From a virus, in IMG/VR virus record IMGVR_UViG_3300045988_176298, positions 1 through 43,155 of that record: a DNA stretch of 43,155 nucleotides; one strand, 5' to 3'. Every line of letters begins with the position of its first letter. The first letter of the stretch is position 1. Below are positions 570 through 32,741 of the stretch, one piece after another. A model generated the notes under the pieces. The model saw only the letters and a program-made list of their open reading frames with translations, ran no database searches and was not told where the DNA came from. Both the position numbers and the translations under genes were made by a program.

Positions 570-1698
570 AAAAGAGGTTTCAGAAATCAAGAAGCAGTTC
601 AGCTATGAAAGAGCAGCCATTACCCGGATTTGTGGGTGCTATGTAGATGGAGAGAAGAATATCAGAACCAAGATGAAGGAAGCGTTCTTCTCCCTTCCGG
701 AAGAAGAGATATTTAAGTATTTCAAAATCTTCCAGAAGACTTTATCCGGCCGCCTGGAGAAAAATCTGGTTAACCTGGAGTTCCCGCGAAAACAAGAGGA
801 AATTGGCGGTGCACAGGAGTTTCTTCTCAGACTCAGGGATTGTGGGCTTGCCGATAATGAATTGCTGGAAGAATTCTATCAGACCATTATTGAAAATTAC
901 TATTATCCGGAGGGCTATTACATAATCCTGGTCCATGGAGCCTACGACATCCCTGGCAAAGCCAAGGATAATATAGAAATGTTTGATGCATCAGACGATG
1001 TATATGAATATCTTCTGTGCAGCATCTGTCCGGTAAAACTTTCAAAACCTGGGCTTGCTTATAGAGCGGAAGATAACCGGATTGAGAACCGGATCCGCGA
1101 CTGGGTGGTGGAAGAACCGATGCACGGTTTTCTGTTTCCGGCATTTAATGCCAGAGAGATGGACATCCATGGAATGTTATACAGTTCCCGGAAACCAGAG
1201 CAGCTGCAGCCGGATTTTGTCCAGAGCGTGTTTGGTTGTCAGCTGCAGTTATCCGCTGAAAGCCAGCGTGATGCATTTGCGGCGCTGATTGCGGATACAT
1301 TAGGAGAATCTGCGGATTATGAAAGCGTAAAGGATATCTATGAAAATCTTTCGGAAATCATTGAAGAAGCCAAAGACTCCCCGGAGCCAATCATTCTCAA
1401 CAAGCCGGATGTGAAGCAGCTGTTTGAAATAAGCGGTGTGTCAGAGAAGGCCTTGGAGGACTTTGACAACATATATGATGCTGCCATTGGCGATAATAAC
1501 GGCCTGGCTGCAGATAATATTTCCTGCGGTCGGACTTTCAGTATTGAAACCCCGGAAGTGACAATCAAGGTAAATCCTCAATTCATGGATCTGGTAGAAA
1601 CAAAGATAATTGATGGAAGAAACTGCCTTGTCATTACTGTAAATGACCATGTGGAAGTGAACGGGGTAAAAGCGCGGACAATTTCCGCAGAAGATTAA
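562..1698 (+). CDS. DUF4317-like protein (378 aa)
   Basis: The N-terminus MNKKEVSEIKKQF...ITRICGCYVDGEKN...LSGRLEKNLVNLEFP resembles my recollection of Firmicute DUF4317 proteins. AGGAGG-type SD upstream. Confidence 0.75.
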   Translation: MNKKEVSEIKKQFSYERAAITRICGCYVDGEKNIRTKMKEAFFSLPEEEIFKYFKIFQKTLSGRLEKNLVNLEFPRKQEEIGGAQEFLLRLRDCGLADNELLEEFYQTIIENYYYPEGYYIILVHGAYDIPGKAKDNIEMFDASDDVYEYLLCSICPVKLSKPGLAYRAEDNRIENRIRDWVVEEPMHGFLFPAFNAREMDIHGMLYSSRKPEQLQPDFVQSVFGCQLQLSAESQRDAFAALIADTLGESADYESVKDIYENLSEIIEEAKDSPEPIILNKPDVKQLFEISGVSEKALEDFDNIYDAAIGDNNGLAADNISCGRTFSIETPEVTIKVNPQFMDLVETKIIDGRNCLVITVNDHVEVNGVKARTISAED

Positions 1699-1722
1699 AT
1701 GAGGATTTAAAGGAGGAGTAGG

Positions 1723-2888: not shown

Positions 2889-2929
2889 TTGCTTAAAGGT
2901 ATTATAGCATTTTTGCGGCCTTTAAGCAA
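2889..2929. repeat. 11-bp perfect inverted repeat TTGCTTAAAGG / CCTTTAAGCAA (19-nt spacer) just upstream of the recombinase start
   Basis: Arms at 2889..2899 and 2919..2929. CTTAAAGG occurs again at 2930..2937, overlapping the SD. Confidence 0.85.
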
Positions 2930-2948
2930 CTTAAAGGAGGCAAAATCT

Positions 2949-3971
2949 ATGAAGGAACAGCTTATCAATGATGTGTTATTAAGAATGCAGGAAGTAATCA
3001 ACCGGGAACAGCTCCGCGTGCTGGAGCAGGTGCTTCTGGCTGTGATGTACAGCGTTGAGGTGGTCCGCATGGAGACAGCCCTGAGTACCGATCTGGATGA
3101 TAACCAATACATGTTGGATACCATCAAGCTCAATATGCAAAAGAGAGACCTCAGCGAAAAGACCATAGAGCAGTACATGAGGGCGGCGCGGATGTTTTTG
3201 GATGTGGTGCATAAAAACCTGCGCAATGTGATTCCGACGGACATAGAGTATTATCTCAATGAGTTTTCCCGCGGCAGGCTCAAGGCCAATAGCCCGCAAA
3301 GCGTTAATAACGAGAGACAGTTCTTGTCATCCGTGTTCACCTGGCTGCGTCGGTGCAATTTTATCAGCCAGAATCCTGTGGAGAACATCCCGAAGAGGAA
3401 AGTGCCACGGAAACCGATAGACTTTTTACAGGGTGTTGAGGTGGAGGAGTTGCGCGCGGCCTGTGACCAGGACACCGCAAAAGGCAAGCGTGAGAGGGCA
3501 GTGTTAGAATTCCTGCTTTCAACAGGCGCCAGAGTGGGTGAGGTGCCGGACGTCAAGATAGCTGACATAGATTTTGTTTCTGGGACACTTATGATTTATG
3601 GGCACAAGGACAGGGAGTACCGCGAAGTATACCTGGATGATGCAGCCAAGGTACACATTAAGCGCTACCTGGATAGCCGGCAGGATGACAGCCCTTACCT
3701 GTTTGTCGGGCTTAAGGCTCCGCATCTGCCGATCCATGAGTGTGCATACCGTGACCTCATGCAGGGTATCAGGGAGCATGCGGAGATGCGGCGCCGGGTA
3801 TATCCACACCTGATGCGCAAGACAATGGCATCCAGCCTGAGGCAGCATGGGGTAAGCCTGGATGATATCGCAGATATGCTGGGACATAGCACTACGACGG
3901 TTACCAAGGGGTATTATGCGGCGCAGACGCCGGGACAGCTGCGGCACGTACATAAGGCATACATTGCTTAA
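2949..3971 (+). CDS. Tyrosine recombinase (XerC/D / phage-integrase family), second copy in this genome
   Basis: C-terminal catalytic-type motifs ARVGEV...HLMRKTMAS...LGHSTTTVTKGYYA. Start placed at the ATG behind AAAGGAGG; the track ORF begins at 2889. Confidence 0.9.
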   Translation: MKEQLINDVLLRMQEVINREQLRVLEQVLLAVMYSVEVVRMETALSTDLDDNQYMLDTIKLNMQKRDLSEKTIEQYMRAARMFLDVVHKNLRNVIPTDIEYYLNEFSRGRLKANSPQSVNNERQFLSSVFTWLRRCNFISQNPVENIPKRKVPRKPIDFLQGVEVEELRAACDQDTAKGKRERAVLEFLLSTGARVGEVPDVKIADIDFVSGTLMIYGHKDREYREVYLDDAAKVHIKRYLDSRQDDSPYLFVGLKAPHLPIHECAYRDLMQGIREHAEMRRRVYPHLMRKTMASSLRQHGVSLDDIADMLGHSTTTVTKGYYAAQTPGQLRHVHKAYIA

Positions 3972-4838: not shown

Positions 4839-4864
4839 ATTTGAAAAAGAATAGGGAGGACATT

Positions 4865-5929
4865 ATGCAAGAGTTATTCGATAGATATGATAAGATTTTG
4901 TCAGGAGAACTAAAAAAGATAGATATTCCTGGAAATAGGGAGTTCAAAACCTATGCAATAACAAATTTTAGAGGCGGTATTGGTAAAACGACTTTATCTT
5001 TCAATCTCGCTTATGCAATGAGTAAAAAGTATATGACTTTATTTTTGGATATGTGTCCCCAACAAAATTTTACATCCCTGTTGTTGAATAGTACAAAGCC
5101 TTATGAAGGAAGCACTATTTATGACGCATTAATGGAAAAAATGATGGGTTCAGCATGGCAAATAGGAGATAAGAATTTATCCTTGAGACTTCAAGATTTC
5201 AATGAGGAATTTAGAAGTAACTGTAAAACATGTTATTTTATTCCCGGAAGCAGCCATCTGTTTTTGTTTCCCAGTCAATTTTATTCGCGATTGAATGAAT
5301 ATTTAGGAATGACATCTTCTGGAAATGGAGAGAGACCTGTTAGTGTTTTATTAAAAATGCTTAAAACCATAATTGTGGAGCAAATGGAAGAAACGAAGAC
5401 TGAAAAAATATTAATAGATACGAGCCCTTTTTTTGCAGGAGGAACTCACTTAGCTTGGGCGGCATCTGATGCCTTAATTATTCCAGTAAGAGTTGATGAA
5501 CAATCTATTTATTCATTGGAACTCACACTTGAAATGCTTCATAACCCAGCAAGCGATTTTAATATTTGGAGAGAGAGAGCGGGAATGTCAGAAAAACCTA
5601 CTGTCCAAGCAATAATTATGACCCACTGTGGTTGGAATAGACAAGCGGATCATCAAATAGATAGTGCATCTCGTATGTATATTGAACGAGCAGTTGATAT
5701 CGCACTAAAGTACAAAGATGTATTTACGACTGAAAATGTTGTTGACCATTTTGCATTGTTGTCAGATTTTCATAGTTCTGGAAGAATAAGCGGTTCTAAA
5801 GCGATACCTATTGATAATTTGATTGAGGGAAGACAGCATAGGATTGAAGGAAGAAAGGTGGAAGTTAACAGGAGTGTAAACAGATATAAAAAAGAACTGG
5901 AGTATGCATTTAATTTAATTAATTGTTAA
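4865..5929 (+). CDS. ParA/Soj-family P-loop ATPase-like protein (orphan, no ParB seen)
   Basis: Deviant Walker A reads NFRGGIGKTTLSFNLA, with Arg in place of the signature Lys. Walker B-like ILIDTSPF. Start moved to the ATG behind AGGGAGGA. The gene is visibly AT-rich relative to its flanks. Confidence 0.8.
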   Translation: MQELFDRYDKILSGELKKIDIPGNREFKTYAITNFRGGIGKTTLSFNLAYAMSKKYMTLFLDMCPQQNFTSLLLNSTKPYEGSTIYDALMEKMMGSAWQIGDKNLSLRLQDFNEEFRSNCKTCYFIPGSSHLFLFPSQFYSRLNEYLGMTSSGNGERPVSVLLKMLKTIIVEQMEETKTEKILIDTSPFFAGGTHLAWAASDALIIPVRVDEQSIYSLELTLEMLHNPASDFNIWRERAGMSEKPTVQAIIMTHCGWNRQADHQIDSASRMYIERAVDIALKYKDVFTTENVVDHFALLSDFHSSGRISGSKAIPIDNLIEGRQHRIEGRKVEVNRSVNRYKKELEYAFNLINC

Positions 5930-17046: not shown

Positions 17047-17868
17047 ATGAACGAATTAATGATGTTTGAAGGTCACGAAGTTGAAGTATTTGAATTAAAC
17101 GGACAGGCGCTGTTCAATCCCTACCATGTGGGAAATTGCCTGGAATTGGGAGAGAGTGCCGTAAGGATGGCAATCGCAAAGATGAACGGAAAACAGGCGG
17201 TTAAGGTTAAAAATTCGGATGTCAAAGATATTGACTTCCGAAAACTGAACAACGCCGGCGAAAATTTCCTTACGGAGAGCGGTGTCTACAAGTTAGTATT
17301 TAAGAGCCATAAACCGAATGCCGAAGCATTTACAGACTGGATTGCGGATGAAGTTCTCCCCACCCTCCGCAAGACCGGTTCTTACGAAATGCCAAAAACA
17401 AAGGCTCATTCCGAACATCTTGCCAGCGTAAATAACGCCGTCAAGATACTTACTCCACTTCTTAAAGAGGCCGGATGCACGCCGCAGATTCAGCTTCTCA
17501 CAGCAAAATCACTGTATGAGAAAGCCGGTGTTTCTCTTCCTATAGAAATTCAGTCAGACAAGCACTATGTTGATACAGTACATATTGCCCGTCATGTAGG
17601 GCTGTATTACCAGAGTTCTGGCAAGCCAGCGGACAAAGCCGTGAATGAGATTATCCGCCGACTCAATCTGCCGGAAACTATGTACACTGAGACATGGGAA
17701 AGTAAAGGGAACTGGCAGGGAGCGGTAAGGAAATATGACGAGGCTGTAATCGGCATGGTTCGCCAGTGGTATTGTGACAATGGCTATCCGCGCAATATAG
17801 AATATATCCAGTGTGATGGACAGAAGAAATGCTATCACGTGGTATGGCATGATGCGGAGGTGGCGTAA
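17047..17868 (+). CDS. BRO-N domain protein (antirepressor-like)
   Basis: FEGHEVEVFELNGQALFNPYHVGNCL...NFLTESGVYKLVFKSHKPNAEAFTDWIADEVLPTLRKTG matches the BRO-N signature. Confidence 0.85.
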   Translation: MNELMMFEGHEVEVFELNGQALFNPYHVGNCLELGESAVRMAIAKMNGKQAVKVKNSDVKDIDFRKLNNAGENFLTESGVYKLVFKSHKPNAEAFTDWIADEVLPTLRKTGSYEMPKTKAHSEHLASVNNAVKILTPLLKEAGCTPQIQLLTAKSLYEKAGVSLPIEIQSDKHYVDTVHIARHVGLYYQSSGKPADKAVNEIIRRLNLPETMYTETWESKGNWQGAVRKYDEAVIGMVRQWYCDNGYPRNIEYIQCDGQKKCYHVVWHDAEVA

Positions 17869-25610: not shown

Positions 25611-26681
25611 TTGTCATATTTAGAACAAAATGGGCTGAAATATCTATATGAGAAAATTATGGCTCGCCTTAATGGAAAAGTAGATAAAGTAACCGGCAAG
25701 GGGTTATCCACCAATGATTTTACGGCAGCTCTTTTAAATAAGCTTAACGGCATTGCTACCGGTGCCGAGGTCAATGTGCAGGCGGATTGGAGCAGTACCG
25801 ATTCCGCTTCCGATGCTTTTATCAAGAATAAGCCGTCCTCTTTCCCGCCTTCCTCCCATACCCACACAAAGGCTCAGATTTCCGACATGCCCACAAAGCT
25901 GTCCCAGTTCACCAACGATTCCGGCTATCTCAAAGCCACGGACATCGATACCAGCCAGAACCACACACATGCCAATAAAGGCATTCTGGATACGCTTACC
26001 CAGGCTATGCTCGACAAATGGAACACCGTCTCCAATAAAGTGGACAAGGTCAGCGGCAAAGGCCTGTCAACCAACGATTTTACGGCCGCTCTTCTCAGCA
26101 AGCTCAACGGCATCGCCGAAGGGGCAAACAAATATACCCACCCCGCGTCCCATCCCGCGTCCATGATAACCGAGGATTCCACCCACCGCTTTCTCACTGA
26201 TTTCTGCAAAACCATCACGGACTGGAACTCGGCGGCGGCAAATGGCTTTTATATGGGAAATGATGCTGCAAACGCCCCTTCAACAGGCTGGTATTTCGGC
26301 CGCGTTACCGCCCATAACGCCAACTACCTGTACCAGGAGGTATATCAGTTTACGGCAAGCGCGGACGCCAGGGCCGTTCCCAAATACATCCGCGTAAAAT
26401 CAAACGGCGCCTGGGGATCCTGGTCCAATGTCACCGTTGCGGCGGCGGTTCCCTCCAACGCCAAATTTACGGATACCGTGTATACCCATCCCAACAGCGG
26501 CGCATCGGCCGGAACCTATAAAAGCGTAACCGTAAACGCCCAGGGCCATGTTACCGGCGGCACCAATCCCACCACTCTGGCCGGCTATGGCATTACGGAT
26601 GCGGCCGGCAAGAATCACAACCATGATGGGACCTATCTTAAAAAGGGCGCCGTGACCTGGAATGACCTGAAAGGAAGCTGA
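25611..26681 (+). CDS. Tail fibre protein with an internal duplicated module
   Basis: VDKV(T/S)GKGLSTNDFTAALL(N/S)KLNGIA occurs twice. TTG start behind GAGGAGGTGAGG. Confidence 0.75.
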   Translation: MSYLEQNGLKYLYEKIMARLNGKVDKVTGKGLSTNDFTAALLNKLNGIATGAEVNVQADWSSTDSASDAFIKNKPSSFPPSSHTHTKAQISDMPTKLSQFTNDSGYLKATDIDTSQNHTHANKGILDTLTQAMLDKWNTVSNKVDKVSGKGLSTNDFTAALLSKLNGIAEGANKYTHPASHPASMITEDSTHRFLTDFCKTITDWNSAAANGFYMGNDAANAPSTGWYFGRVTAHNANYLYQEVYQFTASADARAVPKYIRVKSNGAWGSWSNVTVAAAVPSNAKFTDTVYTHPNSGASAGTYKSVTVNAQGHVTGGTNPTTLAGYGITDAAGKNHNHDGTYLKKGAVTWNDLKGS

Positions 26682-26685
26682 TTTA

Positions 26686-27411
26686 ATGTATGGAAAAAAT
26701 CAATATGGCCTGATACAGTACGCCAGGGACTCCACTTCAGACAGCGGGCAGACGGATTATTATGTTGACCTTAAGCGGTATGTGCCACCTTTCGTATATG
26801 AAAAGAAGGAAATGGACGCCTTGTATACGGCTCAAGGATACGAAGTGGGGCTGGCCCGGCATAACCTGGAGGACTTGGTGGACCAGTGTTTTGTCAGTAC
26901 CGCAACTTGGGGTCTCATCCGCTGGGAAGAGGTGTTTGGAATTGCCACAAATATGTCCCTATCCTATGAGCAGCGACGGGAGATTATCATAGCCAAAATT
27001 AGAGGACAGGGAACCACCACAGCTGAGATGATTAGGAGCGTCGCAGAGGCCTTTACCGGAGGTGAGGTGGAAGTAATCGAGGATAGTCCTAATTACCATT
27101 TTATCGTCCGATTTGTTGGCGTGTATGGCATTCCGCGCAACATGCAGGCATTTATTTCCATATTGGAGGATATTAAGCCGGCCCATCTGTGGTACACGTT
27201 TGACTATAAATATGTGATTTGGAATGACTTGAAGCAGAAAACCTGGAATGACCTGCGGCCGTACACATGGGATGGCTTACGTATAGATGAGGTAACGCCG
27301 TATGTATCTTGGACTGGTCTGAGCGAGGAGGAATATACCTGGAACCGTTTGGCTGCCTATGGGTGGCTAAAAGTCAAAGAAATAGAGGAGGCAAAGAGAA
27401 TATGCAATTAA
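26686..27411 (+). CDS. DUF2313/YmfQ-like tail protein
   Basis: YVPPFVYEKKEMDALYTAQGYEVGLARHNLEDLVDQCFVSTATWGLIRWEEVFGI resembles the Mu gp48/YmfQ family. Confidence 0.7.
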   Translation: MYGKNQYGLIQYARDSTSDSGQTDYYVDLKRYVPPFVYEKKEMDALYTAQGYEVGLARHNLEDLVDQCFVSTATWGLIRWEEVFGIATNMSLSYEQRREIIIAKIRGQGTTTAEMIRSVAEAFTGGEVEVIEDSPNYHFIVRFVGVYGIPRNMQAFISILEDIKPAHLWYTFDYKYVIWNDLKQKTWNDLRPYTWDGLRIDEVTPYVSWTGLSEEEYTWNRLAAYGWLKVKEIEEAKRICN

Positions 27412-28226
27412 CACCTAATTTCCGGCTGCGGAAGCCGGATGGAACGGATCCTGTTGATGTTAAAGACCTTAATGACAATATGGATGTGCTGGACACTGAA
27501 GTAGCTAAAAAAATGGATAAGACCGGGGACGCCAGCAATGCCGTGGCAAAATTTAGCCAGGCCGGGTCCAGAACAAATTTAACGTCCGGAGAAAAACTTT
27601 CCTTATCCTTGGGGAAAGCTATGAAATGGTTTGCGGACCTGAAAACGGTCGCATTTTCCGGAAGCTATTCAGATTTGTCTGGAAAGCCCAGCATCCCTTC
27701 CGGGACTGCGGCGTCCTGTGGGGTAGCCAACAATGATACAACAACAGCTTCCGGATTTGTGGCAGACGCGAGGATTGTCAAGACGCACGGAGATGAAATA
27801 GATACGCTAAATCAGAATTTAACCGCCTTAAATGACAGCGGAGCTATCAAAGGCATGGATGCCAGGGAGGACGGAGTATACATTACATATTCCACTGGTG
27901 CTGATACAGTGACAAAAAAATTGGGTAGCCCCGAATATACATTAGGACATGCGGCCGACAGCAATAAGTCTCCGATAGATATCACAATTCCAGCTTGCGA
28001 AAATGCATTACTTGTAGTGGCTGCCAATAGTGGGGCTACGGTTGATATTAATGGAAACGTTTCAGCAGGTTCTGGAGAAATTAAGAGCCTTGGACTACAT
28101 AATTTCAAAGGTAACACGACCATTAACATGGGGCTTTTCCAGGTTACTTCAAAGGCTGGATGCACGGTGACTTTTAGCATCCCCGCATACACCAACACCA
28201 TGACGGTAATGTTTCTCTCCGCATAA
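27402..28226 (+). CDS. Distal tail fibre / receptor-binding protein (currently expressed C-terminal variant)
   Basis: MQLTPNFRLRKPDGTDPVDVKDLNDNMDVLD is a typical fibre N-terminus. ATG behind GAGGAGG. The track ORF start at 27309 lies inside the upstream gene. Confidence 0.8.
   Translation: MQLTPNFRLRKPDGTDPVDVKDLNDNMDVLDTEVAKKMDKTGDASNAVAKFSQAGSRTNLTSGEKLSLSLGKAMKWFADLKTVAFSGSYSDLSGKPSIPSGTAASCGVANNDTTTASGFVADARIVKTHGDEIDTLNQNLTALNDSGAIKGMDAREDGVYITYSTGADTVTKKLGSPEYTLGHAADSNKSPIDITIPACENALLVVAANSGATVDINGNVSAGSGEIKSLGLHNFKGNTTINMGLFQVTSKAGCTVTFSIPAYTNTMTVMFLSA
27808..27822. repeat. Inverted-repeat arm A, TAAATCAGAATTTAA (inside the fibre CDS, codons L-N-Q-N-L)
   Basis: Perfect reverse complement of 28661..28675. 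Confidence 0.95.
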
Positions 28227-28241
28227 AGCCCGCATTATAAG

Positions 28242-28715
28242 CTATTCAAAAGCCGCATAAACTAAATTCATTGCAACTCCAGAGCTTCGCGGCACAATGA
28301 AACCATTATCAGATATATACCCAATTGGAATATTAGTCGCCGTATTATCTGTTTCATTGGACAAAGGAAGATCGACTTCTTCAAAGACCGTATTGTAAGT
28401 TGCAAACAAAATTTTATCAACGCTGTATGATTCGTCGTATGCCGCTGTTCTGCGTGATTTATCGACACTATTAATACCATACACGAAGATTACTTTAGGT
28501 CTAAAACCCAAGTCGATTTTTGTGTAGTTGCTTACAGAAGTATTTAATTCACCACTACGAAAATGTGTCAATGGTGATTTAAAAGGGATTACTGTATCGG
28601 CACCTCCTGGGGGAATGAATCCAGGCTTACCATCGGGGGTATTGCCAAATCTATAACCGTTTAAATTCTGATTTACTGCAATAACTATTTTGTTAACAGG
28701 TCCTCTTTTGAGGGC
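28242..28715 (-). other. Promoterless, start-less alternative tail-fibre C-terminal cassette (silent orientation)
   Basis: The minus-strand frame is open from 28715 to the stop at 28242, and there is no ATG or GTG upstream of a TTG at 28571. It reads ...VNQNLNGYRFGNTPDGKPGFIPPGGADTVIPFKSP..., parallel to the fibre's LNQNL...GADTVTKKLGSP. Confidence 0.7.
28661..28675. repeat. Inverted-repeat arm B, TTAAATTCTGATTTA
   Basis: Perfect reverse complement of 27808..27822, in the same codon register on the minus strand. Confidence 0.95.
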
Positions 28716-28766
28716 TTATTTTTATATGTTTTTACCCGGCAAAAGACCGGGAGAAAGAGAGGAATT

Positions 28767-29186
28767 ATGAGCAACACAATTTTAGTACTGGCAGATGCCA
28801 CAGAAATCACTATGGAGGATAACTCCAATATGCACAACGTCATTGTCAAGTCTTCCACCAAGGCAGTTATGGCAGAAGCTTGGGAAAAATTTACCGATGC
28901 AAACCTGAAAGCAGTACAGCTCAAGATTGATGGCGTCGTATCGGGAAATTATGAGGACCTGGTACTGGTAGATGAAAAGTCCGTTGTGCAGGCGGACGGA
29001 TCCGTTCTTACGGAATTTCACCTCCGCGAAAAAACGGACATTGAGAAGCTGCAGGAACTGGTGGCGGCTCAGAGCGCAGAAATTGCAGCGCTGAAAGAAG
29101 GCCAGGGAGTACAGGACGGCGCCATTGATGACCTTGGAGTGGTAACTTCCAGTCTCGCTGAAAAAGTAGAAGGAGGACAGGCGTAA
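28767..29186 (+). CDS. Hypothetical protein in the XkdW position (139 aa)
   Basis: ORF behind GAGAAAGAGAGGA, between the fibre genes and the lysis cassette. Confidence 0.6.
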   Translation: MSNTILVLADATEITMEDNSNMHNVIVKSSTKAVMAEAWEKFTDANLKAVQLKIDGVVSGNYEDLVLVDEKSVVQADGSVLTEFHLREKTDIEKLQELVAAQSAEIAALKEGQGVQDGAIDDLGVVTSSLAEKVEGGQA

Positions 29187-29293
29187 TGGGAAGATTTTAT
29201 GGAGTTAAGATTTTAGCAGGAGAAAAAACGCTGGAAGAAGTTCCTAAACTTTGGAAGGCAGCCACGGAAAAGTGGCTGAGAGAGAATCAGTAA
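29186..29293 (+). CDS. Small conserved phage protein (35 aa, XkdX/CD1375-like position); not in the ORF track
   Basis: Manual translation: MGRFYGVKILAGEKTLEEVPKLWKAATEKWLRENQ. Its ATG shares one base with the upstream TAA. Confidence 0.55.
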   Translation: MGRFYGVKILAGEKTLEEVPKLWKAATEKWLRENQ

Positions 29294-29307
29294 TAGGAGG
29301 CACCGAT

Positions 29308-29628
29308 GTGACGGACGAAGAAATCGCTATCAAGCTTACAGTCCTTGAACAGGAAACAAAATCCGCGAAGCATCGTCTGGATGACCTGGAAGTGCAAAAT
29401 CAGGCCATCCAGAATCTGGCCCTGTCCGTCAAGGAGCTTACCATCAACATGACAAGGATGATGGAGGAGCAAGAAAAGCAGGGCCAGGACATTGATACCT
29501 TAAAAGCAGAGCCGGCAAAGCATTGGAAAGATTCCACGAAGGCTTTATTTAATGCCGCATTGGGAGCAATAGGAACGGCGCTGGGTGGGGGCATTATTTA
29601 TTTGATTTGGATATCGATTCCAAAATGA
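29308..29628 (+). CDS. XhlA-like protein (coiled coil plus C-terminal TM helix)
   Basis: GTG start 7 nt after TAGGAGG. Coiled-coil N-terminus and C-terminal ALGAIGTALGGGIIYLIWISI. Position upstream of the holin matches PBSX xhlA. Confidence 0.7.
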   Translation: MTDEEIAIKLTVLEQETKSAKHRLDDLEVQNQAIQNLALSVKELTINMTRMMEEQEKQGQDIDTLKAEPAKHWKDSTKALFNAALGAIGTALGGGIIYLIWISIPK

Positions 29629-29644
29629 AAAGGAGAAGAGAGAT

Positions 29645-29860
29645 ATGAAGAACAGGAACTGGAAAGAATGGATTAAGAGAGCAGGAGTAAGGGCAATTAA
29701 GACCGCAGCGCAGACCTTCGTGGCGTCTGTGGGGACAGCGGCTGTACTGGGGGCAGTAAATTGGCAGATGGTAGTGAGCGCCTCGGTGCTTTCAGGTATC
29801 TTATCCCTGGCTACGTCGGTAGCGGGCCTGCCTGAGCTGCCGGAACCGGAGGGGGAGTAA
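29645..29860 (+). CDS. Holin
   Basis: 71 aa with two hydrophobic segments (RAIKTAAQTFVASVGTAAVLGAV...SASVLSGILSLATSVAG), directly upstream of the endolysin. Confidence 0.8.
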   Translation: MKNRNWKEWIKRAGVRAIKTAAQTFVASVGTAAVLGAVNWQMVVSASVLSGILSLATSVAGLPELPEPEGE

Positions 29861-29900
29861 TCCCCTTCCTTTCTATTATTAGCAGACAAAGGAGATTATT

Positions 29901-30725
29901 ATGTGGAAAGGAATAGATGTAAGTAGCAATCAGGGTACAATTAATTGGGGGGCGGTCAAGGCCGCAGGCTGCGATTTCGCAATCCTCAGGAGTACCATAA
30001 AATCTGGAAAGCCAGACAAGCAGTTTGCTGTTAACGTAGCCGGCTGCCGGGCACAGGGAATACCTATGGAAGTCTACAAATACACCTACGCCCTGACCCC
30101 GACACAGGCAGTAGATGAGGCTCAACAGGTAGTGTCCCTGTTGCGCTCTCACGGCCTCACCTGCCGTGTTTGGTGGGACGTAGAGGACAATTCTCTTCGC
30201 ACTCTTAATCGTGGCGTGCTGACAGGCCTGATACAGTCTGCGGCGGATGTTATTATCGGCGCTGGTTACGATTTTGGAATTTACACGGGAAAGTCGTTTT
30301 ATGAGGAAAGGGTATTTGACACCACGGCTTTTGATTGTCCGTTTTGGATGGCACGATACCCGATGCGCAGGGAATATGCCCTGACAGACGACCCGCCAGC
30401 GGATAAGTACAAGCCGACAGTCACGCAGCCGCTGGTAGATTGGCAATATACCAGCAATGGCCGGGTGGATGGCATCGCAGGGCCGGTAGACCTTAATATC
30501 TGTTATGCCCCTTTCTGGGAGACACAGGCCCCGGAATACTACCTGCAGGATGTCTGGCACGGGACAAGCATTGCGCGCGCTCTGGAGAGCATCGGAGAGG
30601 ATGGATCCTACCAGCATCGGGCGCAGATAGCGGCGGCGAATGGTATTACTGATTATGCTGGCACGGCAGTTCAGAATACTCACATGCTTAATCTGTTAAG
30701 GACTGGACAGCTCCAGAAGGCATAG
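29901..30725 (+). CDS. Endolysin, GH25 muramidase with a C-terminal wall-binding-like domain
   Basis: The N-terminus GIDVSSNQGTINWGAVKAAGCDFAILR is the GH25 signature. 274 aa. Confidence 0.9.
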   Translation: MWKGIDVSSNQGTINWGAVKAAGCDFAILRSTIKSGKPDKQFAVNVAGCRAQGIPMEVYKYTYALTPTQAVDEAQQVVSLLRSHGLTCRVWWDVEDNSLRTLNRGVLTGLIQSAADVIIGAGYDFGIYTGKSFYEERVFDTTAFDCPFWMARYPMRREYALTDDPPADKYKPTVTQPLVDWQYTSNGRVDGIAGPVDLNICYAPFWETQAPEYYLQDVWHGTSIARALESIGEDGSYQHRAQIAAANGITDYAGTAVQNTHMLNLLRTGQLQKA

Positions 30726-30734
30726 TCGAAAGAA

Positions 30735-30767
30735 AAAGCTCCAGCGTTATCGGAACACCGGAGCTTT
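30735..30767. terminator. Hairpin between convergent genes (possible bidirectional terminator)
   Basis: Stem AAAGCTCC / GGAGCTTT (30735-30742 with 30760-30767). It overlaps the 3' end of the minus-strand ORF. Confidence 0.45.
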
Positions 30768-30980
30768 GTGTAAAATCCATGATTTGTACAAAATCGTTGC
30801 ATTACGGACATTGTAAAAAATTCCGCCGAGATTCACGTTCTTATAACAGCCTTTACAGTGCTGCATTCCTATCCAGTAGGCATAAGGAAAGAAATAGAAA
30901 CCCATCAGGAACATGATGCACAACGGGACAACAGAAATTAATGCAATTGCGATGCAAATAAAATAGATAATGTAAGTCAT
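30747..30980 (-). CDS. Small membrane protein (77 aa)
   Basis: Two hydrophobic helices followed by a HCKGCYKN motif. AAGGAAG SD. AT-rich, opposite strand to the late operon. Confidence 0.6.
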   Translation of the reverse strand: MTYIIYFICIAIALISVVPLCIMFLMGFYFFPYAYWIGMQHCKGCYKNVNLGGIFYNVRNATILYKSWILHKAPVFR

Positions 30981-31101
30981 ATAAAATCACTTCCTTTGAC
31001 ACAAATATAGCATGCAAAACGATAAAGAACAATGGGAATTGACAAACACGCTCTTTTTTTGCTGATGGAGTATATTTATGACAGCTTATGAGCATCGACA
31101 C

Positions 31102-31114
31102 AAATCAGAATTTA
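31102..31114. repeat. Third copy of the fibre crossover core AAATCAGAATTTA (+ orientation)
   Basis: Exact 13-mer shared with 27809..27821. The upstream ATCGACAC mirrors the fibre's ATAGATACGCT (IDT). Confidence 0.9.
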
Positions 31115-31215
31115 TATCTACTTAATGGGCGCGATAAAGTAATTGATTCAGTCGTTGTTGTTCCTTTTCCGGCAATGCTGTCTGTCAAATAATCCCATGT
31201 GGATAGTAAGTTCCC

Positions 31216-31228
31216 TAAATTCTGATTT
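31216..31228. repeat. Fourth copy of the core (reverse orientation, TAAATTCTGATTT)
   Basis: Exact reverse complement of the 13-mer, 101 bp from copy three. Confidence 0.9.
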
Positions 31229-31346
31229 CTAATATTATATGTTCCTATGAAATAGATATTTATACACGATATTGGGACCATAATATCTGTTATTACCTAT
31301 TTATAATGCGCAGAAAAAAGGATGTCGCTTTTTATCAGAAAAAAAT

Positions 31347-31370
31347 ACAATATACATTAAATATACAAAT
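31347..31370. repeat. Two AATATACA-type repeats
   Basis: ACAATATACAT and AAATATACAAAT. They are related to the phased triplet at 31510..31539. Confidence 0.6.
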
Positions 31371-31452
31371 CGTCCAAAGAGGCATAAAAATCGGCATCCT
31401 TTAATAAGATTAAAGTAGTTAAGATGAAATAGCAGAAAGCAACAAATGGCTT

Positions 31453-31502
31453 AAAACGGGCATTTTATATCGAACAAATATTCGATAAAATACCCGTTTT
31501 TT
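31453..31502. terminator. Long imperfect palindrome / bidirectional terminator downstream of int
   Basis: AAAACGGGCATTTTATATCGAA...TTCGATAAAATACCCGTTTTTT. Confidence 0.6.
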
Positions 31503-31509
31503 AAACTAA

Positions 31510-31539
31510 AATATACACACAATATACACACAATATACA
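31510..31539. repeat. Three AATATACA repeats at 11-bp phasing (candidate arm-type integrase sites)
   Basis: AATATACA at 31510, 31521 and 31532, immediately beyond the int stop codon. Confidence 0.7.
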
Positions 31540-31545
31540 AATTAT

Positions 31546-32586
31546 TTATACCTTAATTTTATTGATTTCCAATAGCAATCGCTGGGGCAGAATATGAGTG
31601 TATACGCCGTCTGTTATGTCGGTGACACGATGGCCGAGAATCAGCTTACGGCATAGGTCATCACACTTTGCATCCTTCATAAGAGTGGCGCATGTGTGCC
31701 GTGTATCGTGCATGGTATGTTCCATCCCTTTCGACTCCAGGAAGGGTTTAAGGTGGACATCATTGAAATGCGCATAGGTGAATGGCTTGCCCTCATCCAT
31801 AATAAGGTACTCATTTTCAGGATTATAGAATTGTTTAATGATGGGGTATATTTTATTATGGATTGGCACTATACGGTTTTTGCCCGCATCTGTTTTATTT
31901 CCTCCGCCCATGTAGCGGTCCTTTAAATTTACGTCAGCGGTTTTTATCCGCAGTAATTCCATAACCCTGTACCCGGTGTAGATATAGATCAGGAGCTGCC
32001 GGGATATCTCAGATTCATCCGCCCAAAGAGCTGCGATTTCATCAGGAGTGAATACTTTATGCTTCTGAGCCTTTTCCCTGGCTGACGCCCGGATGATGAA
32101 TTGTGAAATGTCCTTTTCCACATATTCGTGCTTCATGGCATATTTGTACATGTGATGGAGCAGCGTTATGGGCTTTGTAATTGTAGAATCGGACATGCCG
32201 TCCAGCTTGTCTATTTCTGTCTGCAGGTCCTTTATTTTGAGGTACGCAAACTTCTTATCATGCAAGGCAGAAAGCTGGTTAAAAGCGCAGATATATGATT
32301 CATGTGTTTTCTGGCTAACACTTTTATACCTTTCATATTCGGTGATCCATTCGTCGAAAACTGTGCGAAAGATGATGTCTGATATCGGCCGATTGTCGTG
32401 AGTTAATTTCCCCTCATTATATTGTGCGAGAAAAATGTTGGCCGACTTCTTATCTTCGAAATAGCCCAAATAATCATACAAGGGGGTACCATTCTTTTTG
32501 TAGCCCTTGATTTTCCGGACGGCATAGGGCCGGCGCCTTTTTCCGGATAACTTTATGATACCTCCGTATCCTCCTGGTAGTTTCAT
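31546..32586 (-). CDS. int: Tyrosine integrase with an AP2-like arm-binding N-terminus
   Basis: N-terminus GGIIKLSGKRRRPYAVRKIKGY...YLGYFEDKKSANIFL. C-terminus HDTRHTCATLM...LGHRVTDITDGVYTH. Adjacent to the repressor module and the AT-rich att-like region. Confidence 0.92.
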   Translation of the reverse strand: MKLPGGYGGIIKLSGKRRRPYAVRKIKGYKKNGTPLYDYLGYFEDKKSANIFLAQYNEGKLTHDNRPISDIIFRTVFDEWITEYERYKSVSQKTHESYICAFNQLSALHDKKFAYLKIKDLQTEIDKLDGMSDSTITKPITLLHHMYKYAMKHEYVEKDISQFIIRASAREKAQKHKVFTPDEIAALWADESEISRQLLIYIYTGYRVMELLRIKTADVNLKDRYMGGGNKTDAGKNRIVPIHNKIYPIIKQFYNPENEYLIMDEGKPFTYAHFNDVHLKPFLESKGMEHTMHDTRHTCATLMKDAKCDDLCRKLILGHRVTDITDGVYTHILPQRLLLEINKIKV

Positions 32587-32617
32587 AGTGCAACCTCCTT
32601 TTTGAGTATAAAAAATA

Positions 32618-32631
32618 CACCTGTACAGGTG
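32618..32631. promoter_or_regulatory. Perfect 14-bp palindrome CACCTGTACAGGTG upstream of int
   Basis: Self-complementary 14-mer 32 bp upstream of the int start. The half-site CCTGTACAG recurs at 32684..32692. Confidence 0.6.
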
Positions 32632-32741
32632 CCGGAGGTTTGTGGTAAAATATTCTTGTCACGGATTACTTTACCGGCTCCGGCCTGTACAGTATTCAAT
32701 TTTTCCGCTCTGGCGTTGGCGCGCTGGGGCGGATTTCAAAA

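What the first reader, a model, noticed from the sequence alone, without database searches (positions are those of the whole stretch)
31102..31228. Two extra inverted copies of the fibre crossover core sit about 320 bp from the integrase gene
The 13-mer AAATCAGAATTTA occurs four times in the window:
- 27809-27821 (+)
- 28662-28674 (-)
- 31102-31114 (+)
- 31216-31228 (-)

A given 13-mer is expected roughly 0.001 times by chance in about 86 kb of two-strand sequence (4^13 is about 6.7e7), so these copies are related.

Details of the third and fourth copies:
- They are inverted relative to each other and flank 101 bp of AT-rich non-coding DNA between the lysis cassette and int.
- The third copy is preceded by ATG AGC ATC GAC ACA (M-S-I-D-T, then N-Q-N-L). 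This echoes the fibre's E-I-D-T-L-N-Q-N-L and uses the same codon register.
- The frames stay open for only 26 codons from the third copy and 37 codons from the fourth copy after NQNL.

Possible meanings:
- A recombinase-proximal relic of an ancestral fibre-inversion module (as in Mu G-gin).
- Accessory or enhancer-type binding sites that point to the adjacent int product as the invertase.
- A multi-site shufflon.

Recombination between copies one and three, which are direct repeats, would delete the whole lysis cassette. Recombination between copies one and four would invert 3.4 kb.
Basis: partly seen in the sequence, partly recalled or inferred. Interest (0 to 1): 0.72.

Follow-up and report, generated by a model that had tools for sequence, protein, structure and literature searches.

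The report
Leftover fragment of a tail-fibre cassette
The two extra repeat copies near the integrase gene enclose the first 40 codons of a broken tail-fibre swap cassette that is intact in related phages, so they are most likely an evolutionary leftover and not a working switch or integrase binding site.

Summary
AAATCAGAATTTA occurs four times at the stated coordinates, far more often than chance allows.

Copies 1 and 2 are the crossover cores of a tail-fibre inversion module. The 13-mer encodes N-Q-N-L at the junction between the constant and variable parts of the fibre. Related Lachnospiraceae phages join many unrelated C-termini at this point.

Copies 3 and 4 are not integrase sites:
- Window 31104-31228 is 90-96% identical to the start of an intact 116-codon fibre cassette in two relatives (L047 and Eisenbergiella porci L050).
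- Copy 4 is that cassette's own core.
- Copy 3 sits where the intact cassettes read GCATAAGAATTTA (10/13), and homology ends inside it. A perfect core there puts a TGA stop in the cassette frame, so copy 3 is a recombination scar.

attP maps to 31404-31441, between spoIIIAG and spoIIIAH, with different flanking repeats. A relative with the same att site and the same fibre cores lacks the pair. The identical core also occurs in phages with three unrelated integrase types.

No rearranged junction appeared in public assemblies or proteins. The "relic" reading is supported. The "Int accessory site" and "working multi-site shufflon" readings are not. Residual recombination activity remains untested.

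The parts
27402..28226 (+). Tail-fibre gene in its expressed form: constant N-terminus, then NQNL, then cassette A
   Evidence: ORF and sequence. It lies next to a Mu gp48-like baseplate gene. It is identical to P0001, and the same N-terminus is joined to unrelated C-termini after NQNL in P0009, P0020, P0024 and P0033.
27808..27821 (+). Copy 1: genuine crossover core, the 14-nt dyad TAAAT-CAGA-ATTTA, encoding (L)NQNL
28242..28661 (-). Silent inverted alternative C-terminal cassette B
   Evidence: The reverse-strand frame reads NQNLNGYRFGNTPDGK.... The identical cassette is silent in other phages (P0121 and P0122).
28662..28675 (-). Copy 2: genuine crossover core (14-nt dyad), forming an 18-nt inverted repeat with copy 1
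   Evidence: (I1).
31102..31114 (+). Copy 3: hybrid 'scar' core. Positions 6-13 (AGAATTTA, 31107-31114) are cassette-C sequence. Positions 1-5 and everything to the left are unrelated DNA
   Evidence: Intact cassettes read GCATAAGAATTTA here (10/13), and homology ends inside the 13-mer. A perfect core creates TGA in the cassette frame. It has atypical C at -1 and T at +1.
31115..31215 (-). 101-bp stub: roughly codons 5-38 of fibre cassette type C, sense on the minus strand (GNLLSTWDYLTDSIAGKGTTTTESITLSRPLSR...)
   Evidence: 90% identical to L047 1864-1988 and 96% identical to E. porci L050 327-451, where the cassette continues to 116 codons.
31216..31228 (-). Copy 4: the stub cassette's own core. 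Homology to intact cassettes stops exactly at its outer edge, where -1 is G instead of T
30747..30980 (-). ORF77: a small hydrophobic moron gene with its own promoter-like region and terminator. It forms the left neighbour of the relic
   Evidence: Homologues occur at other positions in other phages. It is absent from L049 together with the relic.
31404..31441 (.). attP core: 38 nt shared by attL, attR and attP. It holds the spoIIIAG stop codon, and spoIIIAH starts 22 nt beyond it in the lysogen
   Evidence: Integrated forms L018-L024 and L028, and excised forms L026 and L030.
31347..31370 (+). ATATACA-type direct repeats left of the core: putative Int arm-type sites, unrelated to the 13-mer
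   Evidence: the repeat finder family D1. The region is conserved in L049. The functional assignment is inferred.
31508..31542 (+). ATATACA-type direct repeats right of the core: putative Int arm-type sites
   Evidence: the repeat finder family D1. The functional assignment is inferred.
31546..32586 (-). Tyrosine integrase responsible for integration at spoIIIAG/AH. It is not the conserved partner of the fibre core
   Evidence: Pfam and PHROG hits. It is adjacent to the att junction in lysogens. Phages with an identical core carry unrelated integrases.
2889..3971 (+). XerC/XerD-like tyrosine recombinase: candidate trans-acting fibre invertase (inference only)
   Evidence: Pfam Phage_integrase plus SAM_4. 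The best PDB relatives are XerC-like, XerA and XerD. An 85% homologue lies on the same IMG/VR contig as L004, which has the identical core pair and no close Int homologue. No serine recombinase is encoded in the window.

Best explanation
Copies 3 and 4 bound a vestige of a tail-fibre C-terminal cassette.

The background system is a fibre-switching module. A short core, TAAAT-CAGA-ATTTA, encodes NQNL at the join between the constant and variable parts of the fibre. It marks the start of every exchangeable C-terminal cassette. Inversion between oppositely oriented cores swaps which cassette is expressed.

At 31102-31228 only the first ~40 codons of one such cassette survive. This is type C, which is intact and 116 codons long in relatives. 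Copy 4 is that cassette's own core. Copy 3 is a junction formed where a true core recombined with a 10/13 look-alike sequence inside the cassette. That event deleted the rest of the cassette and whatever lay between. It could have been recombinase-mediated, or a deletion using the 8-nt microhomology AGAATTTA.

The stub lies in the variable 'moron' slot between the lysis genes and attP, next to the mobile gene ORF77. It lies outside the attP arm that is conserved in relatives. Its closeness to int is therefore incidental.

What is shown:
- the homology to intact cassettes and its exact boundaries;
- the attP position;
- the absence of the pair from a sister phage;
- the occurrence of the core with unrelated integrases.

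What is inferred:
- the deletion mechanism;
- that the pair now has no function;
- that the invertase acting on cores 1 and 2 is the distant Xer-like recombinase (2889-3971) or a host enzyme.
For: Identity as a cassette fragment: window 31104-31228 matches L047 1864-1988 at 90% and E. porci L050 327-451 at 96%. In both relatives this is the start of an inverted or silent fibre cassette. It begins at a core and reads NQNLGSLLSTWDYLTDSIAGKG...YKFLCIEF... for 116 codons.

Boundaries: homology stops at the outer edge of copy 4 and inside copy 3. Both intact cassettes have GCATAAGAATTTA at the copy 3 position. A perfect core there reads ...TAT AAA TTC TGA, so it cannot exist inside a working cassette.

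Family context:
- Hundreds of fibre homologues share the N-terminus and diverge right after NQNL.
- Cassette A is silent in L004, P0013 and P0021 but expressed here.
- L046 is 99% and 95% identical to the window up to the two cores and differs between them.
- L052 has a multi-cassette arrangement.

Not Int-related:
- attP core lies at 31404-31441 with ATATACA repeats on both sides.
- L049 shares the att site, the arm (87%) and the fibre cores, but lacks 30726-31265.
- L047 and L053 have the same core with unrelated integrases.

No sign of use:
- 8 of 8 independent contigs spanning the pair have the window's orientation and are 100% identical.
- No fibre-N plus stub protein and no MSIDTNQNL plus B protein exist in the protein collection.
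- There is no hit for the core plus stub junction in JGI metagenomes.
- Contig ends fall in the att core, as expected for a real recombination site, but not at the inner ends of the 13-mers.
Against: - Both 13-mers are perfect, so nothing in the core itself would stop a recombinase that reads only those 13 bp from acting on them.
- Consensus assemblies cannot exclude low-frequency inversion. The expected 1x2 fibre switch was also not seen in assemblies, so the population test has low power.
- All available copies of the relic are 100% identical, so they say nothing about selection on it.
- The origin of the DNA left of copy 3 (31013-31101) and right of copy 4 (31229-31264) is unknown. How the stub came to lie beyond the lysis genes is unresolved.
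- The invertase has not been identified.
Confidence: 0.78

Rival explanations
1. Live four-site shufflon. The fibre invertase still recombines copies 3 and 4 with each other and with copies 1 and 2. It would flip the 101-bp stub, or reversibly invert the 2.4-3.4 kb carrying the lysis genes, giving a truncated fibre or a lysis-off state.
For: All four 13-mers are identical. The (+)(-)(+)(-) orientation pattern is that of real tandem invertible segments in a relative (L052). The outer flanks of genuine silent-cassette cores are not conserved either, so the recognised site may be little more than the core.
Against: - Copies 3 and 4 lack the T at -1 found at every genuine core examined, and copy 3 has an atypical T at +1.
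- The only cassette on offer is a 36-residue stub of a 116-residue domain.
- 1x4 or 2x3 inversion would turn the lysis genes against the late transcription direction, and 1x3 or 2x4 would delete them.
- No such product appears in contigs or in proteins.
- The pair is absent from the sister phage L049.
Confidence: 0.12
2. Invertible regulatory switch. The 101-bp segment flips to control transcription towards ORF77 or, in the lysogen, across attR into spoIIIAH.
For: Short inverted repeats flank a small segment near a tyrosine recombinase gene. In the lysogen spoIIIAH is cut off from its operon and lies 200 bp downstream on the + strand. The + strand of the unit folds more stably than shuffles, z = -4.0.
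Against: - The segment is 90-96% identical to coding sequence of a fibre cassette, so it was not shaped as a promoter.
- There is no promoter-like or terminator-like match inside it and no Rfam match.
- The fold signal is essentially the 13-bp repeat pairing with itself.
- ORF77 homologues carry their own promoter region, which ends near 31012.
- One orientation is seen in 8 of 8 contigs.
- L049 lysogens at the same site lack it.
Confidence: 0.04
3. Integrase accessory, arm-type or enhancer sites, implying that Int is the fibre invertase.
For: The pair lies 318 bp from the int stop codon and 175 bp from the attP core.
Against: - It lies outside the attP arm shared with L049, which uses the same att site without these copies.
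- The repeats that flank the core on both sides are a different motif.
- The att core has no copy of the 13-mer.
- The same fibre core works with unrelated integrases in L047 and L053.
Confidence: 0.03
4. Chance recurrence of an AT-rich 13-mer.
For: The region is AT-rich (36% GC).
Against: 0 of 100 shuffles give four hits, against an expectation of 0.24. In addition, 122 bp including copy 4 are homologous to a real cassette.
Confidence: 0.01

Closest known systems
Rin shufflon of Bifidobacterium prophages (Mavrich et al. 2018, PMC6109161)
   Same: A temperate gut phage has a constant receptor-binding N-terminus and several variable C-terminal cassettes. Each cassette is preceded by a short repeat (11 bp there, 13-14 bp here). 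A XerD-like tyrosine recombinase distinct from the phage integrase is the suspected invertase. That paper also describes a second locus with an 8-bp site and no adjacent recombinase.
   Different: Here no recombinase gene adjoins the cassettes: the candidate lies 24 kb away. The core is a dyad, not asymmetric. The host lineage is Lachnospiraceae and the phage has a contractile tail. The feature under review is not a working cassette but a truncated stub displaced beyond the lysis genes.
Mu G/Gin, P1 C/Cin, e14 Pin and p15B Min tail-fibre inversion systems (own knowledge; summarised in PMC6109161 and PMC12529663)
   Same: Inversion between short inverted repeats at the constant/variable junction of a fibre gene swaps convergent C-terminal cassettes. 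Min has multiple segments. Cryptic prophages retain partial fibre segments.
   Different: Those systems use an adjacent serine invertase, 26-bp sites and a Fis-dependent enhancer. No serine recombinase is encoded in this window, and the core here is 13-14 bp.
R64 plasmid shufflon (Rci tyrosine recombinase, sfx sites; own knowledge)
   Same: A multi-site system in which only a short core plus one arm is conserved. In L052-type relatives, cassettes lie in alternating orientation.
   Different: It varies a pilus adhesin, not a phage fibre. Its recombinase gene is adjacent. Its sfx sites are asymmetric, which blocks deletions. Here a deletion between a core and a pseudo-core is exactly what appears to have made copy 3.
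Secondary-site (pseudo-site) recombination scars of site-specific recombinases, such as pseudo-lox or pseudo-attB events (own knowledge)
   Same: The junction lies within a sequence that partly matches the true site. After the event the site is 'repaired' to a perfect copy, while homology ends inside it.
   Different: The recombinase dependence of the event is not shown here. A RecA-independent deletion at 8-nt microhomology would leave the same junction.

Membership tests
Functional crossover site of the fibre inversion/shufflon module (copies 3 and 4) | The site is followed in frame by a complete alternative C-terminal cassette | tested here: not met
   The frames close after 25 and 36 residues. 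The copy-4 frame is the first ~40 of 116 codons of cassette C. The copy-3 frame is antisense to that stub.
Functional crossover site of the fibre inversion/shufflon module (copies 3 and 4) | The full 14-nt dyad TAAATCAGAATTTA, with T at -1 and A or G at +1, as at all genuine cores | tested here: not met
   Copy 3 has C at -1 and T at +1. Copy 4 has G at -1. Fourteen distinct flank contexts of genuine fibre cores, from the window and eight relatives, all have T at -1.
Functional crossover site of the fibre inversion/shufflon module (copies 3 and 4) | Conserved in relatives that keep the fibre inversion module | tested here: not met
   L049, L046, L047, L004 and L053 have the fibre pair only. 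L049 shares the att site and lacks 30726-31265.
Functional crossover site of the fibre inversion/shufflon module (copies 3 and 4) | Alternative orientations or junctions occur in natural populations | tested here: inconclusive
   None was found in 8 spanning contigs, the protein collection or JGI contigs. Assemblies also fail to show the expected 1x2 switch, so power is low. Read-level data are needed.
Tyrosine-recombinase fibre shufflon (Rin-like): the module formed by copies 1 and 2 | A constant N-terminus with alternative C-terminal cassettes in inverted orientation, each starting at a short repeat | tested here: met
   Multi-cassette form in L052.
Tyrosine-recombinase fibre shufflon (Rin-like): the module formed by copies 1 and 2 | A dedicated armless tyrosine invertase encoded next to the cassettes | tested here: not met
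   No recombinase lies adjacent in the window or in L046, L047, L049 or L053. A Xer-like recombinase lies 24 kb away. Its role is inferred only.
Gin/Cin/Pin/Min serine-invertase fibre switches | A serine (resolvase-family) invertase gene in the element | tested here: not met
   Pfam scans of the ORFs of 90 aa or more judged likely to be genes (50 in all; ORFs nested in or antisense to longer ones were not scanned) find no Resolvase domain.
Integrase arm-type/accessory sites of attP | They lie within the attP region conserved among phages that use the same att site and Int | tested here: not met
   Homology with L049 spans about 31265-31441 only. The copies lie at 31102-31228.
Integrase arm-type/accessory sites of attP | Int binds the sequence | not testable with these tools
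   This needs EMSA or footprinting.
Invertible promoter (inverton, fimS-like) | A promoter or terminator lies inside the invertible segment | tested here: not met
   No promoter-like or terminator-like site lies within 31115-31215. The segment is cassette coding sequence.

The most novel reading that the evidence does not exclude
The four identical cores form a live long-range shufflon. Besides swapping fibre tips, the invertase would occasionally pair a fibre core with a stub core. That would reversibly invert the whole lysis cassette and truncate the fibre. A subpopulation of prophages would then be temporarily unable to lyse or adsorb, which amounts to a phase-variable 'domesticated' state of a prophage sitting inside a sporulation operon.
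Probability: 0.05. Interest if true: 0.7.

Novelty: new member of a known kind. Interest (0 to 1): 0.25.

Why it matters
For annotation, this removes a tempting but wrong inference. The integrase is not shown to be the fibre invertase, and there is no evidence of a second switch near int.

The relic is a modest but clean molecular fossil. It shows that in this widespread family of gut Lachnospiraceae phages the NQNL core is a real breakpoint for cassette gain, loss and exchange. It also shows that look-alike sequences inside cassettes can be used, with destructive results.

The wider system may deserve more attention than the relic itself. It is a fibre shufflon with a 14-bp dyad core and no adjacent invertase. 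It is shared by phages with three different integrase types, and this one is inserted between spoIIIAG and spoIIIAH.

Tried and rejected
- Megablast of 26600-32700 against GenBank phages found no match.
- Exact searches of IMG/VR found nothing for the copy-3 flank plus core, for the inverted pair at 85-115 bp spacing, or for a degenerate cassette-C pattern.
- The JGI metagenome scan for core plus stub found nothing.
- I tested whether copy 3's left flank is a decayed fibre constant region. The profile gave E = 0.43, and 365 of 500 shuffles aligned at least as well, so I rejected this.
- Stub peptides against relatives' cassettes by tblastn gave nothing until L047 and L050 were fetched.
- L032's deviating contig end looked like a junction but is a Nextera adapter.
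- The 12-mer ATGAAATAGATA near copies 1 and 4 is in the wrong relative orientation. About one such pair is expected by chance in 6 kb, so I treated it as chance.
- Attempts to extend the co-occurrence of the Xer-like recombinase with the fibre core were uninformative. The profile scan of IMG/VR and the terL-anchored scan hit mosaic modules and missed the relevant contigs.
- RNA-level readings were rejected: no Rfam hit, and the hairpin signal is the repeat itself.

Full report
**Observation**

AAATCAGAATTTA occurs exactly four times: 27809 (+), 28662 (-), 31102 (+) and 31216 (-). No additional hit appears at one mismatch. None of 100 dinucleotide-preserving shuffles reaches four hits, and the mean is 0.24. 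Copies 3 and 4 are inverted, enclose 101 bp, and end 318 bp from the int stop codon. The frames after NQNL close after 25 and 36 residues.

**Context**

The window is a temperate contractile-tail phage of a Firmicute. Its genes include:
- a terminase, an SPP1-type portal, a sheath and tube, an XkdN-like chaperone, baseplate J and a Mu gp48-like protein;
- a fibre at 27402-28226;
- a holin and a GH25 endolysin;
- a small reverse-strand gene, ORF77, at 30747-30980;
- a tyrosine integrase at 31546-32586 (-).

A second tyrosine recombinase, XerC/D-like, lies at 2889-3971. None of the likely genes scanned (50 ORFs of 90 aa or more) carries a serine-recombinase domain.

**What the core is**

Copies 1 and 2 form an 18-nt inverted repeat. 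They flank two convergent C-terminal cassettes, A (expressed) and B (silent), and the 13-mer encodes N-Q-N-L in frame.

A search of the large protein collection returned 682 fibre homologues. The 120 best were listed and eleven read in full. In those the N-terminus is conserved (98-100% identical in the closest) and diverges immediately after NQNL into unrelated C-termini. Cassette A also appears as orphan silent ORFs elsewhere.

Three relatives add to this:
- L046 is 99% identical to the window up to copy 1 and 95% identical from copy 2 onwards, but differs between them.
- L004 carries the start of cassette A in the inverted position.
- L052 carries the window's own A and B cassettes, both silent, beside a third cassette. 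The arrangement is c(-), 25 nt, c(+), B, A, c(-), a true multi-cassette shufflon.

Across fourteen distinct flank contexts of genuine fibre cores, from the window and eight relatives, the site is the 14-nt dyad TAAAT-CAGA-ATTTA. It always has T at -1 and A or G at +1, and the flanks are otherwise unconserved.

**What copies 3 and 4 are**

Window 31104-31228 matches L047 1864-1988 at 90%. It matches Eisenbergiella porci contig NZ_VUMI01000049.1 (L050 327-451) at 96%.

In both relatives this stretch is the beginning of a fibre cassette. It starts at a core and reads NQNLGSLLSTWDYLTDSIAGKG...SYKFLCIEFEVEK... for 116 codons. The window reads NQNLGNLLSTWDYLTDSIAGKGTTTTESITLSRPLSRYKF and then stops.

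- Copy 4 is therefore this cassette's own core.
- Homology ends exactly at copy 4's outer edge, where -1 is G and not T.
- At the other end, homology ends inside copy 3. Both intact cassettes read GCATAAGAATTTA there (10 of 13), the window's AGAATTTA is shared, and AAATC plus everything to the left is unrelated.
- A perfect core at that place reads TAT AAA TTC TGA in the cassette frame, so it cannot exist in a working cassette.

The simplest reading is that a true core recombined with this internal look-alike in direct orientation and deleted the intervening DNA. That left a perfect hybrid core (copy 3), 101 bp of cassette, and the cassette's own core (copy 4). Had the partner been unrelated DNA, restoring the three mismatched positions by luck has a chance of about 1 in 64. 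Whether the event was recombinase-mediated or a microhomology deletion cannot be told from the sequence.

**Relation to int and attP**

Integrated copies of this exact phage place it in the spoIIIA operon. On one side the order is spoIIIAG, core, int (L018-L024). On the other it is ORF77, copy 3, copy 4, core, spoIIIAH (L028). Excised forms are also present (L026, L030).

The 38-nt core is 31404-31441. It holds the spoIIIAG stop codon, and spoIIIAH starts 22 nt beyond it. The core bears no 13-mer. The repeats that flank it on both sides are ATATACA-type. Copy 4 ends 175 bp from the core.

L049 is a sister phage at the same att site. Its GH25 endolysin is 84% identical, its attP arm is 87% identical from about 31265, and it has the same fibre core pair. 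It lacks ORF77 and the relic altogether and has 368 unrelated bases in their place.

ORF77 is itself a mobile moron. A 64% homologue sits after the lysin of a phage with a large serine integrase. A 58% homologue sits between tail genes. Homology to the window ends near 31012.

The identical fibre core occurs with three unrelated integrase types: this Int, L047's tyrosine integrase (only the catalytic motif aligns), and L053's large serine integrase. Int is therefore not the conserved partner of the core. The Xer-like recombinase has an 85% homologue on the L004 contig, which has the identical core pair and no close Int homologue. I could not extend this co-occurrence, so its role as invertase is an inference.

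**Is the pair used?**

- Eight independent ENA and Logan contigs span both copies. All are 100% identical to the window and in the same orientation.
- Contigs break in the att core, as expected for a site present in two contexts. None breaks at the inner ends of the 13-mers.
- One odd contig end is a sequencing adapter.
- The protein collection holds no fibre-N plus stub fusion (the 1x4 product) and no MSIDTNQNL plus B protein (the 2x3 product).
- JGI metagenomes hold no core plus stub junction.
- The same data also lack the expected N plus B fusion, so assemblies are a weak test of low-frequency inversion.
- There is no promoter-like or terminator-like element in the 101 bp and no Rfam match. 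The stable + strand hairpin is essentially the repeat pairing with itself.

**Comparison with known systems**

The fibre module works like the Rin shufflon of Bifidobacterium prophages. That system has short repeats at each variable cassette and a XerD-like tyrosine invertase distinct from the integrase, and the same paper describes a locus with no adjacent recombinase (PMC6109161). More loosely it resembles Mu Gin, P1 Cin and p15B Min, but without a serine invertase. Programmed inversions in prophage fibre genes are widespread (PMC9881135).

The feature under review is not a working member of such a system. It fails on cassette completeness, on the -1 base and on conservation.

**Verdict**

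The 'relic' reading is right in substance. The 'Int accessory site' reading is not supported. The 'working shufflon' reading is not supported, although residual recombination at the two perfect cores remains untested. The finding is an ordinary, if neat, evolutionary leftover within a known kind of system.

Noticed in passing
window 31404-31441; L018-L024, L028: The prophage integrates inside the spoIIIA sporulation operon, between spoIIIAG (its stop codon lies in the att core) and spoIIIAH (its start is 22 nt past the core). About 43 kb of phage DNA therefore separates spoIIIAH from its operon. Both integrated and excised forms occur in gut metagenomes. Whether excision is needed for sporulation is unknown.
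   Followed up: partly
window 31347-31370 and 31508-31542: Direct repeats of ATATACA(C/A)A flank the attP core on both sides. They are likely integrase arm-type sites and are unrelated to the 13-mer.
   Followed up: partly
window 2889-3971 (with 4841-5929): A second, XerC/D-like tyrosine recombinase sits in a locally GC-rich stretch (52%) upstream of a ParA-like ATPase gene and the terminase genes. It is a candidate trans-acting fibre invertase. An 85% homologue is on the same contig as the L004 fibre module.
   Followed up: partly
L052 1-1062 (Logan ERR9514405): A relative carries the window's cassettes A and B, both in silent positions, next to a third cassette (E). Core-like sites lie at 94 (-), 132 (+) and 985 (-). 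This is a multi-cassette shufflon with only 25 nt between adjacent segments.
   Followed up: partly
window 27300-27834 and 28653-29290 vs L046: A near-identical phage (99% and 95%) differs only between the two cores, where it carries an F5/8 type C-like cassette. Whole invertible segments are exchanged between phages, with breakpoints at the cores.
   Followed up: partly
window 30747-30980 (-): ORF77 is a 77-residue hydrophobic, Cys-rich moron with its own promoter-like region and a strong terminator hairpin (30767-30735). Homologues sit at different positions in other phages: after the lysin, or between tail genes.
   Followed up: partly
L050 1062-1074 and L053 9169-9181: Other fibre families use a one-mismatch core, AATTCAGAATTTA (IQNL), paired with the canonical core. 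The conserved part across families is CAGAATTTA (QNL).
   Followed up: no
window 27793-27804, 31247-31258, 30958-30969: The 12-mer ATGAAATAGATA lies just upstream of copy 1 and 19 nt to the right of copy 4, and a one-mismatch copy lies at the ORF77 start. The relative orientation does not fit an extended site, and about one such pair is expected by chance in 6 kb.
   Followed up: partly
window 1696-1709: TAAATGAGGATTTA has the same dyad shape (TAAAT-N4-ATTTA) as the fibre core. It lies at the stop of the DUF4317 gene and is probably chance.
   Followed up: no
window 17047-17868: A BRO-N domain gene is inserted within the tail module, between the tail tube gene and the tail assembly chaperone gene.
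   Followed up: no
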